A DNA stretch of 17,566 nucleotides from a virus (lineage: Duplodnaviria; Heunggongvirae; Uroviricota; Caudoviricetes), in the IMG/VR virus record IMGVR_UViG_2671181056_000012, positions 1 through 17,566 of that record; one strand, 5' to 3'. Positions 9,001-12,000 of this stretch are shown here, in pieces (within the stretch, counting starts at the first letter, position 1; every line of letters begins with the position of its first letter). A program made the position numbers.

Positions 9001-12000
9001 CCCAATTCAACCAACACAGGAAGAACATCAACAGTAAACTCAAGTTGGTAGTGAGCATTCATGCGGCAGAAAGACAGAGAAGAGTCATTAGCAACATACC
9101 CACACGGCTTGTTATTTTCATCGTAGACGCGCTCAATGTAGCCAGCAGTACGCAAGGCCGTTAGTGCTTCTTTAACCTTCGTAGCGCCCTTTTTAGCGCC
9201 TAACAGACGGGTCATTGAATGGCTATCTACGGATTTGCGAACATGAAGTTCAATCAGCTTTTTATTTTCGCGAGTTTTCTTTAATGCCAGTTCGATCCAG
9301 TCGGTTTCTTCAAAGTCTGCATACGGGTTAACAGCTAAACGTTCCTGACGCAGTTTTTCATTTTCTTCTTTCAGTCGTTTCCATTCCTGAATAACGATCA
9401 TTCGACGCTTAACATCGTAACCAGTGACAAGAGTCAGCGTCATTTCTTCGTCTAAGTGATATACTGGTTCTTTAACAGCATATCCTAAGTTATTGATTCT
9501 CTCGACAAATTCAGTTTTGAGCTGATCGATAATACCTAAAGATTCGTACATTTCGCGAATATCGCGCATTACATTGCTGTGCTTCTTATCGGTAAATTCA
9601 GCGATCTGACGAGAAGACATGGTCAGCGGTTTGGTGTTATCAACAACCAGAGACACGGAAGCAGTTTTAGCAGTATTCATAACGGTAACAGTATTCATAG
9701 TAAGATTCCCCTTAATTAACGGTTTTGCGATTTAATCCTCCGTGTTCCGGCAGCATCACCGGAACATTTTTATTTATGATAGAAATTTATTACCAATCGA
9801 TTTCTACTTGGTCTTCTTCATAATAAGGAATCGCATATTCATAACGCCAGTTTTCGATGATTTCACGTTCTTCATTAGTAAGAAGGTGATTGCTAACTGG
9901 AGTCGCATTGTGATTACCAGCTTCGAATTGCTCGCGAACTTCCAGCATTGCATGAATACCAGTTAAGGACATCAGATCAAACGGAACATGCATACTACGG
10001 GAGATAGTTTCACGGGATACGCCCCAATCATTTTCTACATGGCTAGGGCTTACAGAAACGGTTTTGCCGGAGATTTTAACAGTCCAGTCATACAGGGATT
10101 TAGTGATGGTAAATTCTTTCATGTTACATCCTCTTTACAAATCTAGGTCAAATAGGTTCAAAGTTGTCAAGTGCGATAATCATAAAAAAGTCAGAAAATT
10201 TTGTCAACACACCTTGACAAGACGCCAAAGTGTTGACCTAACTTACAGCATATCTAAGCCTTCATCGTAACCGTAGAAGCCATTCTGAGAAGAGAAACAG
10301 ATTGGTGTGTAGTCGTCGTCATCTTCGTCTTGTTCATCGTGTTCTGGGGCTTCCTGAGCGGGTTGTTTACCATAATCAGCCATAATCTGGTCAAGATCGG
10401 CGATCCCATAGTAAGAGCCTAAATCAACGTCATATTCACGAACATCAAACGGCAGGTCATCACGAACAATAATTGCCGGAATGTTGTTGTATTGTTCACG
10501 ACCTTCATCAGTAAAGCAGTCTACGATCACCGTAGGGCGACCATTACGTTTAAGAGCATAGAAAGCAGTTGAGAAATTGGAGTCTTCGGAATGACGAATG
10601 ATGTTATAACCACGATTAGCGAAAACATGCATCATAGCCAGATTATCATCATGGTTCAGACCCAGAAGAATGAAAGGAGTTTTAGTATTGATCATAGTGG
10701 AAATCCTCTAAAAGAAAGTGAATCAAACAAAGTACACTATTATTTATAACGAGAAATTTTTGTCTAATTTGAAAGGAATTGGTATTCAGTCGGCTTCGCC
10801 TCCTTCATAGATTTTGATTAAATCATCATCAAAACGAAGAAGTATCTTTAGAATATAAGAATCTTTCTTTTGGAGAAATTATAATCAGGAAGCAATTTAG
10901 CAACCGAAGGTTGCAATCCCGAAGGGATACCAATACCTTTCATGATCATTAAAGTGATCTAGAATCATCTAGTAACCAGTTAACTACTATTATCTTCAAA
11001 GTGATTATTACTATCTTTCTAGAATCAGTTAGTAACTAGTTTAAAATCCCTTTCAAGAAAATCCTTTCAGAAGTGATTCTCGATGCCACGCAGTGGCGTC
11101 GCAGACGTTTGAGAGTGAGCGAAGCGAGCGAGCAAACTAGTTAATTCCTTCTAAGACCATCTAGTATCATCTAGTTTAAATTAGTGTTACTAGAAGTAAT
11201 TGGTTAGCGCTTCGCGCAGTCGGGCTACGCCCTCCTAATATCTTTTTGGTTATTTGTTGTTTTTAGTTTTACACATGAGCGTAGCGAATGTGTTATATAA
11301 TATCTATGCACGCCCGATCCCCCGTTTTTGCCCCTCGCTAAGTTAATGTTTTATAAAGAGTTTTTCTCACCAATCCTTTTCGGGGGCAAATTTCAGGGGC
11401 AAAAATTAGATTTTCAGGGGCAATTATTGGCATTTCAGGGGCAAAAATGAGGGGCAAAATCACTGTTTCCCAGAATTTCAGGGGCAAAAATAGTAGGTTT
11501 CAGGGGCAAAAATGGGATAGTGAAATCTAGGGGATTTTGGTTCAGGGGCAAAATTCAGGGGCAATTTTCATAGTGTAGTGCTAGTGTAGGTTTGAAAGTC
11601 CTTTCTTGACACTATGTAGGTTTGGTGCTATACTTGACAATTCGAGAAAAAATGTGGTATAATATTTGTATTGAAAGTGAAAATTTACCGATTTTCCTTC
11701 CTATTGTTATCACCGTGTTAAATTGTTATATGTTTGTGAAGATTTGGATCTGAGAGAAAATCTTGTAACAAATCTTTACAATTCATAGCTCAATTAATGC
11801 TCACCGCTTTAGCAAAAAGTGCTATGCCTTTTTCTAAATTGATTGAATATACATCAATTTGGTTAATTCGTGCTCTCCGCTTTAGCAATTCGTGCTGCGG
11901 TTTAACACATTTAACACTTCTGATAACATCTGAATAACATTTTAACATATCTCTGTTATAAATACATATATAAGAGATAAATGTGAGGGGTTGAAAAATA

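What the first reader, a model, noticed from the sequence alone, without database searches (positions are those of the whole stretch)
10955..11240. Second repeat family and GC-rich palindromes upstream of the array
Two 24-bp direct repeats built on XbaI-like palindromes (TCTAGAATCATCTAGTAACCAGTT, 10959 and 11008) plus a third related copy at 11158. Between them lies an atypically GC-rich segment with hairpins such as GCCACGCAGTGGC (11092-11104). Together with the array this makes a ~1.4 kb gene-free hub, unusual in a compact phage genome.
Basis: seen in the sequence. Interest (0 to 1): 0.45.

Follow-up and report, generated by a model that had tools for sequence, protein, structure and literature searches.

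The report
Conserved DNA mini-hairpin cluster beside phage iterons
The repeats and GC-rich palindromes are real and form a conserved, gene-free cluster of very stable DNA mini-hairpins with a short flanking motif, sitting beside the repeat array of an uncharacterised E. coli prophage, and it most likely helps start phage DNA replication, although that is inferred and not shown.

Summary
TCTAGAATCATCTAGTAACCAGTT lies at 10958-10981 and recurs at 11018-11041 (21/24). A weak third copy lies at 11160-11183 (17/24). The hairpin GCCAC-GCA-GTGGC lies at 11085-11097. Eight of the window's 27 CTAG sites fall within 235 bp.

The window is a ~36-kb E. coli siphoprophage with no close sequenced phage relative. 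Its 1,389-bp gene-free hub (10696-12084) is kept at 1.1-1.4 kb in the relatives examined.

The palindromes belong to one class: 4-7-bp stems, a 5'-GNA-3' triloop and a closing C:G pair. This is the rule for extraordinarily stable, supercoil-extrudable DNA mini-hairpins. Stems differ between lineages through compensatory changes, with 100% of cells paired. The hairpins come in pairs followed by ~AACCAATnCCTTTCTAG, on both strands.

The central hairpin segment travels with the iteron type, not with the terminase type.

Best reading (about 0.35): the single-strand-initiation and unwinding part of an iteron-type lytic origin. Rivals are RNA-level promoter/terminator cassettes like those of T4-type phages, a regulator-binding array, recombination modules, and cos. 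Function was not tested.

The parts
10696..12084 (.). Gene-free control hub between the divergent genes 10243-10695 (-) and 12085-12267 (+)
   Evidence: ORF list. A gap of similar size and place is kept in L035, L036, L037, L038 and L040.
10768..10807 (-). Single-hairpin module H1: on the minus strand, AGGAG-GGC GAA GCC-GACTG followed by ACCAATTCCTTTCAAA
   Evidence: Read from the sequence. Orthologous hairpins with other stems occur in L035/L039 (GTGC TATC GCAC) and L038.
10812..10863 (+). Element about 80% identical to intergenic elements of Krischvirus (RB49-like T4-type) coliphages
   Evidence: blastn and alignment. Present in most E. coli hubs and absent from the Salmonella relatives.
10900..10944 (+). 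Module M1: GCAACC-GAA-GGTTGC, ATCCC-GAA-GGGAT, then the flank ACCAATACCTTTCATG
   Evidence: (DNA fold z = -4.2). Shared by both E. coli hub types.
10958..10981 (+). Direct repeat R1, TCTAGAATCATCTAGTAACCAGTT
   Evidence: Absent or replaced in L005 and L012-L016; present in only 7 of 14 GGGGCAAAA-type loci.
11018..11041 (+). Direct repeat R2, TCTAGAATCAGTTAGTAACTAGTT. It is preceded by ACTATCTTTC, which makes a CTTTCTAGAA motif copy
   Evidence: CTATCTTTCTAGAA is identical in Salmonella L035.
11045..11073 (+). Two motif copies, AATCCCTTTCAAGA and AAATCCTTTCAGAAG
   Evidence: Conserved in L038 and in the L041-type hubs.
11077..11127 (+). GC-rich core: TTCTCGAT, then GCCAC-GCA-GTGGC (11085-11097), CGTC-GCA-GACG (11097-11107) and GAGCGAAGCGA with the GCGAAGC mini-hairpin (11117-11127)
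   Evidence: The most conserved part of the hub (99.7%). Stems show compensatory changes in L038 and the L041 type.
11137..11193 (+). Second CTAG cluster. It includes TTAATTCCTTCTAAGA (11141-11156), the 10-bp tandem CATCTAGTAT/CATCTAGTTT (11158-11177) and the weak repeat copy R3 (11160-11183)
   Evidence: One 10-bp unit is missing in L005, L014 and L037. The cluster is replaced in the L041-type hubs.
11190..11232 (-). Module M3: on the minus strand, AGGA-GGGC GTA GCCC-GACT-GCGC GAA GCGC-TAACCAATTACTTCTAG
   Evidence: Orthologues with other stems occur in L038, the L041 type, L040, L067, L073, L087 and DCP80.
11242..11270 (+). T-rich tract that follows M3
   Evidence: A T- or pyrimidine-rich tract sits in the same place in relatives.
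11271..11293 (+). Hairpin H8: ACACAT-GAGCGTAGCGA-ATGTGT, with the motif GAGCGNAGCGA at its tip
   Evidence: The outer stem is entirely different but still paired in L038, L072, L073/L084/L086 and DCP80.
11325..11569 (+). Iteron array (CAGGGGCAAAA), with one inverted copy at 11325-11335. This is 'the array' of the finding's title
   Evidence: The iteron sequence differs between lineages and tracks the hypervariable downstream protein.
11606..11664 (+). Two consensus sigma-70 promoters reading rightwards
   Evidence: Promoter scan, 11/12 and 12/12 matches.

Best explanation
The region is the core of a conserved, non-coding, cis-acting DNA element. It is a cluster of DNA mini-hairpins (4-7-bp stems, 5'-GNA-3' triloops closed by C:G). 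The hairpins are arranged in modules: an A-rich tract, two adjacent hairpins, then ~AACCAATnCCTTTCTAG. Modules occur on both strands.

Proposed mechanism (inferred):
1. The hypervariable protein encoded just right of the hub binds its iterons at 11378-11569.
2. Its binding, helped by negative supercoiling behind the two strong rightward promoters, opens the DNA.
3. The mini-hairpins extrude on both strands and resist SSB.
4. They serve as single-strand initiation or loading signals for priming, probably by host DnaG, in both directions. RSF1010 oriV (iterons plus ssiA/ssiB) and the G4-type complementary-strand origins work this way.

Shown here: the hairpins exist, are selected as structures, follow the DNA mini-hairpin rule, cluster in this hub, and travel with the iteron module.

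Inferred only: that they act as DNA rather than RNA, and that the process they serve is replication initiation.
For: - Clustering. Eight C-GNA-G hairpins occur in the whole 36-kb prophage against 1.25 +/- 1.1 simulated. Six of them lie within 330 bp of the hub.
- Loop rule. Across relatives there are 82 distinct hairpins of this class, with loops GAA 44, GTA 18, GCA 16 and GGA 4.
- Covariation. On a structure-blind MAFFT alignment of three lineages, 16 pairs are 100% paired and 5 pairs show compensatory double changes. Slid controls give 27-58% pairing and no double changes. Seventeen aligned modules give 17 doubly changed cells. H8 outer stems are wholly different yet paired in six or more contexts.
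- Conservation. 11077-11135 is the most conserved stretch of the hub, at 99.7%.
- Published rule. GCGNAGC / C-GNA-G mini-hairpins are far more stable as DNA than as RNA and bind SSB poorly. They occur at the G4/St-1/alpha3 origins, RSF1010 ssiA and N4 promoters (PMC13037366). The closing C:G pair and the loop's 5'G and 3'A are what allow extrusion at physiological supercoiling (PMC4496689).
- Precedent. In RSF1010, initiator binding at oriV (its RepC-binding iterons are recalled from the literature) leads to unwinding that exposes the hairpins ssiA and ssiB on complementary strands (PMC8567376).
- Iteron link. Every relative has lineage-specific iterons next to the hairpins, and the adjacent protein diverges in step with them.
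- Linkage. In the 23 of 31 loci that carry them, the H4/M3 hairpin variants are perfectly linked to iteron type. Both TerL types (58-60% and 87-99% identity to the window's TerL) occur with both hub types.
- No alternative coding or RNA assignment. There is no ORF and no Rfam family in the region.
Against: - No replication initiator, primase or helicase loader could be recognised. The 313-aa protein has no family, no usable model (pLDDT 39) and only about 3 homologous clusters.
- No clearly AT-rich unwinding element adjoins the array. The only 40-mer with at least 85% A+T lies in the rightward leader.
- There are no DnaA boxes or IHF sites in the left half.
- There are more modules (4-5) than a simple two-signal origin needs.
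- Similar double hairpins sit in Krischvirus intergenic regions upstream of genes, where an RNA-level role is plausible.
- On the complementary strand each module is followed by a T-rich tract, which is terminator-like.
- The folding z-score is clearly significant for M1 only (-4.2; the others range from -0.2 to -2.2).
- There is no G.T versus A.C strand asymmetry (14 against 11).
- Linkage to the iterons could simply reflect physical proximity.
Confidence: 0.35

Rival explanations
1. RNA-level regulatory cassettes like the promoter/stem-loop (PeSL) elements of T4-type phages. The Krischvirus-like element at 10812-10863 would be a weak promoter. M1 would form 5' stabilising hairpins. M3, read on the plus strand with its T-rich tail, would be a tandem-hairpin terminator. 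The result would be a ~380-nt non-coding RNA (about 10866-11250), or insulation of the two divergent operons.
For: - A stretch of ~75-85 nt is about 80% identical to Krischvirus intergenic elements that lie upstream of genes in the same orientation and are themselves followed by a double hairpin.
- PeSLs are described as a sigma-70 promoter plus a stem-loop that acts as a terminator (PMC2839356, PMC4122927).
- Every M-type module has a T-rich tract 3' of the hairpins on the TNC strand. In the L041-type hubs it is a good U-tract, ATTCTTTTT.
- TAGAAT at 10849-10854 resembles a -10 element.
Against: - The promoter and terminator scans flag nothing in 10770-11330 on the relevant strands.
- In the window the T-run starts 10-11 nt after the stem.
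- The strict C-GNA-G loop rule has no known stability advantage in RNA, where the stable loops are GNRA and UNCG.
- Hairpin orientation is mixed within the putative transcript.
- Terminators pointing inward between two diverging operons have no obvious job.
- No Rfam match.
Confidence: 0.25
2. Short recombination modules. The hairpin-plus-motif units would be selfish or neutral repeats, comparable to PeSL or REP/BIME elements. They would spread among coliphages and mainly provide homology for modular shuffling, with no direct role in replication or expression.
For: - The hub is a mosaic joint. Both hub types occur with both TerL types.
- Breakpoints fall at motif copies. R1 with its spacer is gained or lost between CTTTC(T/A)(A/T)G copies, and a 10-bp unit is lost by slippage.
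- A mosaic boundary lies at the right end of the array.
- Similar modules occur in unrelated T4-type phages.
- PeSLs were proposed to act in this way.
Against: - The module order and orientation relative to the array are kept in lineages whose TerL is 43-80% identical to the window's.
- The hub stays gene-free and of similar size instead of collecting ORFs.
- The GC-rich core is more conserved than the neighbouring coding DNA.
- Compensatory changes imply selection on structure.
Confidence: 0.15
3. An operator or regulator-binding array. The CTAG-centred motifs (TTCTAGAA-type palindromes) would bind a phage regulator, one of the three small HTH paralogues or Rha, or a host factor. That protein would control the leftward operon, and the hairpins would be secondary.
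For: - CTAG is strongly clustered.
- The motif is partly palindromic: ATCTTTCTAGAAAGGAT in L035.
- Each relative has its own short repeat family at this place: CCCTTTCCAGAAGAGAATTA five times in L038, and TGATCA-type repeats in L040.
- The 60-aa HTH protein is conserved at 66-87%, as is the motif.
- The hub lies between divergent operons.
Against: - Copy number and spacing are not conserved, even among E. coli relatives.
- CTAG alternates with CCAG, CAAG and TAAG at homologous positions.
- No sigma-70 leftward promoter lies nearby.
- This reading does not explain why the hairpins are the best-conserved and covarying part.
Confidence: 0.12
4. A packaging site. Two clusters of four CTAG motifs would flank a ~95-bp GC-rich centre where terminase cuts. 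The geometry recalls P1 pac, and the composition recalls a lambda-type cos.
For: - TerL is a gpA-type (lambda-like) terminase, so a cos site must exist somewhere.
- The hub is the largest non-coding region.
- In the DCP80 fragment a similar hairpin/motif region lies directly upstream of the terminase operon.
- CTAG clusters at 10959-11036 and 11137-11190 flank the GC-rich core.
Against: - The hub lies 2.9 kb from TerL and is separated from it by oppositely oriented genes.
- The Nu1-like gene sits at the far prophage end with its own upstream region.
- Hub type is shuffled independently of TerL type.
- The GC-rich elements keep self-complementarity, with different sequences in each lineage, rather than a fixed asymmetric overhang.
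- No IHF consensus.
- gpA-type enzymes are, to my knowledge, cos enzymes and not headful enzymes.
Confidence: 0.08

Closest known systems
RSF1010 (IncQ) oriV: RepC-binding iterons plus the hairpin priming signals ssiA and ssiB
   Same: An iteron block bound by a cognate protein lies next to short hairpin signals with conserved flanks on complementary strands. ssiA contains a CCGAAGG mini-hairpin of the same C-GAA-G type.
   Different: No RepB'-type primase, RepA-type helicase or RepC homologue was found. There are 4-5 modules rather than two 40-nt signals. There is no sequence similarity. Replication function is untested.
DnaG-dependent complementary-strand origins of phages G4, St-1 and alpha3
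   Same: Mini-hairpins of the GCGNAGC/GCGNNAGC type at priming sites that bind SSB poorly.
   Different: Those are single-stranded DNA phages with one origin hairpin set. Here the genome is double-stranded, so the hairpins would have to be exposed by unwinding or supercoiling.
Phage N4 early promoters (hairpin promoters for the virion RNA polymerase)
   Same: 5-7-bp stem, 3-nt loop with 5'G and 3'A, and a closing C:G pair. These are exactly the features required for extrusion at physiological supercoiling.
   Different: No N4-like RNA polymerase was found among the genes read. The conserved N4 -17 to +1 sequence was not looked for. The hairpins here are paired and lie on both strands.
PeSL promoter/stem-loop cassettes of T4-type phages (RB49/phi1, PST, nt-1)
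   Same: Short intergenic composites of stem-loops and promoter-like sequence that are associated with indels and modular shuffling. Part of the hub (10812-10863 plus the double hairpin) is shared with Krischvirus phages.
   Different: PeSL stems are GN-loop-CN next to a near-consensus sigma-70 promoter and flank ORFans. Here the modules flank no ORFs, carry no consensus promoter, follow the GNA triloop rule, and sit in a temperate siphophage.
Lambda cos and P1 pac packaging sites
   Same: A GC-rich centre flanked by short repeated motifs in a non-coding region of a phage with a gpA-type terminase.
   Different: Not next to the terminase genes. It does not co-vary with TerL. There is no IHF site. 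The GC-rich elements are selected as hairpins. No GATC/Dam hexamers occur in the window.

Membership tests
Iteron-type replication origin with single-strand initiation hairpins (RSF1010 oriV-like) | Tandem iterons specific for a cognate, adjacent initiator | tested here: inconclusive
   The array at 11378-11569 exists. Iteron sequence differs between lineages and tracks the hypervariable protein after the HTH gene. That this protein binds the iterons or initiates replication is not shown.
Iteron-type replication origin with single-strand initiation hairpins (RSF1010 oriV-like) | Hairpin signals with conserved flanks on both strands | tested here: met
   M1 and H4 lie on the plus strand, M3 and H1 on the minus strand. 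Stems covary and the flanking motif is conserved.
Iteron-type replication origin with single-strand initiation hairpins (RSF1010 oriV-like) | AT-rich DNA unwinding element next to the iterons | tested here: not met
   No 40-nt window with at least 85% A+T adjoins the array. The T-rich tract at 11236-11270 (83% A+T) is the nearest candidate.
Iteron-type replication origin with single-strand initiation hairpins (RSF1010 oriV-like) | Dedicated initiator, helicase and primase genes | tested here: not met
   Pfam, PHROGs, NCBIfam and PDB searches find none. The only helicase is UvsW-like.
Iteron-type replication origin with single-strand initiation hairpins (RSF1010 oriV-like) | Supports initiation of DNA synthesis | not testable with these tools
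   Needs replication assays.
DNA mini-hairpins (GCGNAGC / C-GNA-G class) | 3-nt loop 5'-GNA-3' with a sheared G.A pair, closed by a C:G pair, on a short GC-rich stem | tested here: met
   Six of the seven strict tri/tetraloop hairpins found in the window hub follow the rule. There are 82 distinct examples across relatives. The rule is taken from PMC13037366 and PMC4496689.
N4-type hairpin promoter | Hairpin geometry (5-7-bp stem, GNA-type loop, C:G closure) | tested here: met
N4-type hairpin promoter | A cognate single-subunit virion RNA polymerase encoded by the phage | tested here: not met
   No such gene appears in the RefSeq annotation of the 36-kb prophage or among the ten window proteins scanned against Pfam and PHROGs.
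PeSL cassettes of T4-type phages | Stem-loop directly coupled to a sigma-70-type early promoter | tested here: not met
   The two consensus promoters (11606-11664) are about 370 bp from the nearest paired module. No promoter was scored next to M1, M3 or H4.
PeSL cassettes of T4-type phages | Association with indels and module exchange | tested here: met
   R1 gain or loss, loss of a 10-bp unit, hub types exchanged against TerL types.
PeSL cassettes of T4-type phages | They flank ORFan genes in hyperplastic regions | tested here: not met
   The hub is gene-free in the relatives examined.
Lambda-type cos site | Lies immediately upstream of the small-terminase gene and co-evolves with terminase | tested here: not met
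   It is 2.9 kb from TerL. The Nu1-like gene is elsewhere. Hub type is independent of TerL type.
Lambda-type cos site | IHF site between terminase-binding repeats | tested here: not met
   No WATCAANNNNTTR match in the window hub.
Lambda-type cos site | Virion DNA ends map here | not testable with these tools
   Needs virion DNA.
Intrinsic (rho-independent) terminator | GC-rich hairpin followed within 0-2 nt by a U-tract | tested here: not met
   The scan finds terminators only at 12028-12048 and 12309-12338, and none at the hub hairpins.
Any Rfam RNA family | Covariance-model match | tested here: not met
   No match at gathering score. Only chance-level hits at E = 0.3-2.4.

The most novel reading that the evidence does not exclude
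The hairpin-plus-motif modules would be a previously undescribed, portable class of hairpin-dependent initiation signal. Supercoil-extruded DNA mini-hairpins would be recognised by a phage or host protein to start DNA (or RNA) synthesis in a temperate double-stranded DNA phage. The signal would be shared horizontally between this siphoprophage family and lytic T4-type (Krischvirus) coliphages. Together with the lineage-specific iterons and an orphan binding protein, it would define a new type of phage origin and control hub.
Probability: 0.15. Interest if true: 0.8.

Novelty: new variant of a known kind. Interest (0 to 1): 0.5.

Why it matters
- It identifies a conserved 1.1-1.4-kb non-coding hub, with no gene and no Rfam family, in a widespread but unstudied group of Enterobacterales prophages. 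The hub DNA is found in 58 of 5,426 complete E. coli genomes, and relatives occur in Salmonella and other genera.
- Its best-conserved part is a set of covarying hairpins that obey the DNA mini-hairpin rule. That rule is otherwise known from N4 hairpin promoters, single-strand phage origins and the IncQ priming signals. If these hairpins work as DNA, this would be a natural case of supercoil- or unwinding-driven hairpin signals in a temperate double-stranded DNA phage, and it is directly testable.
- It shows non-coding modules, and a UvsW-like helicase, shared between temperate siphophages and T4-type lytic phages.
- It shows the hub acting as a joint where replication/control modules and structural modules are re-assorted.

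Tried and rejected
- Rfam at gathering and E-value thresholds: nothing meaningful.
- Megablast of the hub against phages and plasmids: no match. Distant blastn found only the short Krischvirus element.
- Genome-contig scan with the 313-aa protein: nothing.
- TerL against plasmids: only relatives at about 30% identity or less, so there is no plasmid form of this family.
- Pfam, PHROGs, NCBIfam and PDB sequence searches on the hub's neighbours: no function for the 313-, 150-, 110-, 200-, 77- and 60-aa proteins.
- AlphaFold of the N-terminal 180 aa of the 313-aa protein: pLDDT 39, unusable, so no fold search was run.
- Exhaustive representative search: only 12 hits and about 3 real homologous clusters.
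- The search for homologous proteins on the 313-aa protein listed only near-identical copies.
- DnaA-box, IHF and GATC scans gave no support for a classical origin or cos in the left half.
- A regex search for the AT-rich motif was not decisive.
- The G.T versus A.C asymmetry test, meant to pick the folding strand, was inconclusive (14 against 11).
- Thermodynamic z-scores are modest except for M1.
- The TrpR-operator resemblance (AACCAGTTAACTAC), the RcsAB-box and sigma-32/sigma-54 look-alikes, and the CS-6 and PAS hexamer look-alikes were considered from memory. They were dropped because they are not conserved across relatives.
- Metagenomic contig ends falling inside the hub (L044, L047, L049) were considered as evidence for termini. 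They were rejected because assemblies also break at mosaic or repeat regions.
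Full report
**1. Observation**

The repeats and palindromes are real, but some coordinates are off.
- R1, TCTAGAATCATCTAGTAACCAGTT, lies at 10958-10981.
- R2 lies at 11018-11041 and matches R1 at 21 of 24 positions.
- The third copy, at 11160-11183, matches at only 17 of 24. It is really a 10-bp tandem (CATCTAGTAT/CATCTAGTTT, 11158-11177).
- GCCACGCAGTGGC lies at 11085-11097, not 11092-11104.

The features exceed chance. No dinucleotide shuffle of 200 reached 21/24 (maximum 19). Eight of the window's 27 CTAG sites lie within 235 bp, against 0.36 expected, and none of 1000 shuffles reached 8.

The composition is as described. 11077-11135 is 59% GC and 11207-11235 is 76% GC, between flanks of 28-29%.

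The hub 10696-12084 (1,389 bp) has no ORF of 35 aa or more in the finding's range.

**2. What the window is**

The window carries a gpA-type large terminase (5883-7790, minus strand), a lambda-type portal and a protease-capsid fusion. The hub DNA matches no sequenced phage or plasmid. It does occur in the chromosomes of 58 of 5,426 complete E. coli genomes.

In strain Z0117EC0005 the element is a ~36-kb prophage inserted in ycdX. It has a large serine recombinase and siphovirus-type tail genes. The prophage also encodes a UvsW-like helicase.

The closest deposited phage sequence (TerL 43% identical) is the first ~23 kb of the record DCP80. That record is otherwise T4-like and appears chimeric.

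**3. The hub is conserved**

TerL homologues of graded identity were located in public assemblies. In five loci (TerL 80, 74, 68, 59 and 50% identical) the same layout recurs. A 1.1-1.4-kb gene-free gap lies between a small HTH gene and a leftward gene.

The architecture is also conserved. From left to right it reads:
- the left gene;
- a TATAAATA-type box;
- mini-hairpins interleaved with short AT-rich motifs;
- a T-rich tract;
- an iteron array;
- one or two consensus or near-consensus sigma-70 promoters reading rightwards (for the window);
- a ~380-nt leader ending in a terminator;
- the HTH gene.

The iterons differ between lineages: CAGGGGCAAAA here, TTGTACA, ACATCGCAAAC, CACGGACAAAA and TGTAGGTTT elsewhere. 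The protein encoded after the HTH gene is hypervariable and tracks them. The 60-aa HTH protein stays 66-87% identical.

**4. Anatomy of the finding**

Nearly all GC-rich palindromes in the left half of the hub belong to one class: a 4-7-bp stem, a 3-nt loop 5'-GNA-3', and a closing C:G pair.

On the plus strand:
- GCAACC-GAA-GGTTGC (10900-10914)
- ATCCC-GAA-GGGAT (10916-10928)
- GCCAC-GCA-GTGGC (11085-11097)
- CGTC-GCA-GACG (11097-11107)
- GCGAAGC within GAGCGAAGCGA (11117-11127)
- ACACAT-GAGCGTAGCGA-ATGTGT (11271-11293)

On the minus strand:
- GGC-GAA-GCC (10792-10800)
- GCGC-GAA-GCGC (11207-11217)
- GGGC-GTA-GCCC (11222-11232)

In the whole 36-kb prophage there are 8 strict examples, against 1.25 +/- 1.1 in simulated sequence. 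Six of them lie within 330 bp of the hub.

Listing every such hairpin in all fetched relatives shows that they come in modules. A module is an A-rich tract, then two adjacent hairpins, then (T)AACCAATnCCTTTCTAG. The window has M1 on the plus strand (10900-10944) and M3 on the minus strand (11232-11190). It also has a one-hairpin copy (H1) and a looser H4/H5 unit.

In the window lineage there is also a partial duplication.
- R1 with its spacer is absent from about half of the E. coli relatives.
- One 10-bp unit of the third copy is missing in three relatives.
- CTAG alternates with CCAG, CAAG and TAAG at homologous positions.
- Each relative has its own version of this second repeat family at the same place.

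**5. Selection on structure**

Seven sequences from three lineages were aligned with MAFFT without reference to structure. On that alignment the four window hairpins (16 pairs) are paired in 100% of 94 cells. Five pairs carry compensatory double changes. With partners slid by 1-3 columns, pairing falls to 27-58% and double changes to zero.

Examples with identical flanks:
- GCCAC/GTGGC becomes GTCCC/GGGAC.
- GGGC/GCCC becomes GGCC/GGCC or ACGGC/GCCGT.

The loops change only within GNA (GCA to GTA, GAA to GTA).

Seventeen aligned modules give 17 doubly changed cells. Those were chosen because they form hairpins, so that count is biased.

The 11-mer GAGCGNAGCGA recurs across the family, including DCP80. 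It is a GCGNAGC mini-hairpin flanked by tandem G.A mismatches. In one subclass it caps outer stems that are completely different yet paired: ACACAT, GTGTAT, GATTTC, TTCATC and TCAT.

Among the 15 E. coli relatives, 11077-11135 is the most conserved part of the hub (99.7%). R1 with its spacer is the least conserved (68%).

**6. DNA or RNA?**

The loop rule matches published DNA mini-hairpins.
- GCGNAGC / C-GNA-G hairpins are extraordinarily stable as DNA and much less stable as RNA.
- They bind SSB poorly.
- They occur at the priming sites of G4, St-1 and alpha3, in RSF1010 ssiA and in N4 early promoters (PMC13037366).
- For N4, the closing C:G pair and the loop's 5'G and 3'A are what allow a short hairpin to extrude at physiological supercoiling in vivo (PMC4496689).

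Stable RNA loops are GNRA and UNCG, which are not what is seen here.

Against a firm conclusion:
- Folding z-scores are modest except for M1.
- No G.T versus A.C asymmetry identifies a folding strand.
- On the complementary strand each module is followed by a T-rich tract, which is terminator-like, although the terminator scan does not call these sites.

**7. Linkage**

Of 31 loci with TerL at least 55% identical, 23 carry both the hairpins and the iterons. In those 23 the central hairpin variants are perfectly linked to iteron type:
- GCCAC/GGGC goes with CAGGGGCAAAA.
- ACGCC/ACGGC goes with TGTAGGTTT.

M1 is shared by both types. Both hub types occur with both TerL types (87-99% and 58-60% identity to the window's TerL). 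The hub is therefore a mosaic joint, and its centre belongs to the iteron/right-hand module, not to the packaging genes.

**8. Mechanism**

I commit, at about 0.35, to the reading that this is the single-strand-initiation and unwinding part of an iteron-type lytic origin. The proposed sequence is:
- the lineage-specific protein binds the iterons;
- opening of the DNA is helped by negative supercoiling behind the strong rightward promoters;
- the mini-hairpins extrude on both strands;
- they act as priming or loading signals, as ssiA/ssiB do in RSF1010 oriV (PMC8567376) or G-sites do for DnaG.

Only the existence, selection, class, clustering and linkage of the hairpins are shown. The rest is inference.

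Weak points:
- no recognisable initiator or primase;
- no clear AT-rich unwinding element beside the array;
- no DnaA or IHF sites;
- more modules than a simple origin needs.

Rivals:
- RNA-level cassettes (0.25). The element at 10812-10863 and the adjacent double hairpin are shared with Krischvirus intergenic regions that lie upstream of genes. PeSL promoter/stem-loop cassettes are known in T4-type phages.
- Recombination modules without a direct function (0.15).
- A regulator-binding array centred on the CTAG motifs (0.12).
- A packaging site (0.08). This is disfavoured by position, by independence from TerL type, by the absence of an IHF site, and by the fact that self-complementarity rather than sequence is conserved.

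**9. Comparison and novelty**

The hairpins are members of the known DNA mini-hairpin class, and that feature was tested and met. The element as a whole is not a demonstrated member of any family.
- It lacks the polymerase needed for N4-type promoters.
- It lacks the coupled consensus promoter and the flanking ORFans of PeSLs.
- It lacks the terminase linkage of cos.
- It lacks the recognisable replication proteins and unwinding element of an IncQ-type origin.

I rate it a new variant of a known kind, with moderate interest (0.5). The structural evidence is strong and the family is unstudied, but the mechanism is inferred.

**10. Dead ends**

These are listed under Tried and rejected. Chief among them are the failed attempts to assign a function to the 313-aa protein, and the lack of any Rfam, plasmid or phage match.

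Noticed in passing
window 13983-16169: An IS3-family insertion sequence (orfA 14384-14911, orfB 14947-15942, GC about 57%) splits a Nu1-like winged-HTH/coiled-coil gene on the minus strand. An intact 185-aa copy exists in L002 23287-23844. It aligns weakly but collinearly with a lambda Nu1 sequence recalled from memory (pairwise E = 0.019).
   Followed up: partly
window 11378-11569 and 12380-13321: The iteron sequence differs between lineages (CAGGGGCAAAA, TTGTACA, ACATCGCAAAC, CACGGACAAAA, TGTAGGTTT). The protein after the HTH gene is hypervariable and tracks the iteron type. It is an orphan, with about 3 homologous clusters among 1.84 billion representatives.
   Followed up: partly
window 11570-11625: Promoter P1 is overlapped by three copies of (TA)GTGTAGGTTT. 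This is the iteron of the alternative hub type found in other E. coli prophages with a 99% identical terminase.
   Followed up: no
window 11665-12048: A ~380-nt untranslated leader runs from two consensus sigma-70 promoters to a conserved terminator just before the HTH gene. It contains direct repeats (11792-11823 and 11865-11896) and the only 40-mer of the hub with at least 85% A+T (11933-11973). It could be a regulatory RNA or an R-loop-type primer region.
   Followed up: no
window 10735-10748 and 12015-12028: A perfect 14-bp inverted repeat, CACTATTATTTATA / TATAAATAATAGTG, lies at the two ends of the hub, each copy pointing at the flanking gene. The TATAAATA core is conserved in relatives and in DCP80.
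   Followed up: partly
window 10812-10863; L032 1510-1700; L033 1505-1610: A ~50-85-nt non-coding element is about 80% identical between this temperate prophage and intergenic regions of RB49-like (Krischvirus) T4-type coliphages. In those phages it is also followed by a double C-GNA-G hairpin.
   Followed up: partly
L003 5724-7214 (same prophage, outside the window): The prophage encodes a UvsW-like helicase (UvsW_N domain, E = 1e-34). This is a second link to T4-type replication and recombination biology. GIY-YIG/CapR-domain genes lie nearby.
   Followed up: no
L001/L034 (PQ671644, 'Escherichia phage DCP80'): The record looks chimeric. The first ~23 kb are a distant relative of this siphophage, with a similar hairpin/motif region at 350-1250. 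The rest is T4-like and has rIIA duplicated in inverted orientation.
   Followed up: partly
window 16170-17566: The prophage's right boundary is near 16415. Here and in L037 the prophage lies next to hicB, whereas in Z0117EC0005 and in Salmonella it interrupts ycdX. The family therefore uses at least two insertion sites.
   Followed up: partly
window 997-1087: ARAGORN calls a 91-nt tRNA-Gln inside the ORF 852-1280 (minus strand). Its length and position make it doubtful.
   Followed up: no
window 7876-8478, 8507-8740, 12085-12267: Three paralogous small HTH proteins, sharing a ...STFHKLLKKYxIK...-like C-terminal helix. Two of them are encoded on the plus strand between Rha and TerL, against the flow of the flanking genes. 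They are candidate regulators.
   Followed up: no
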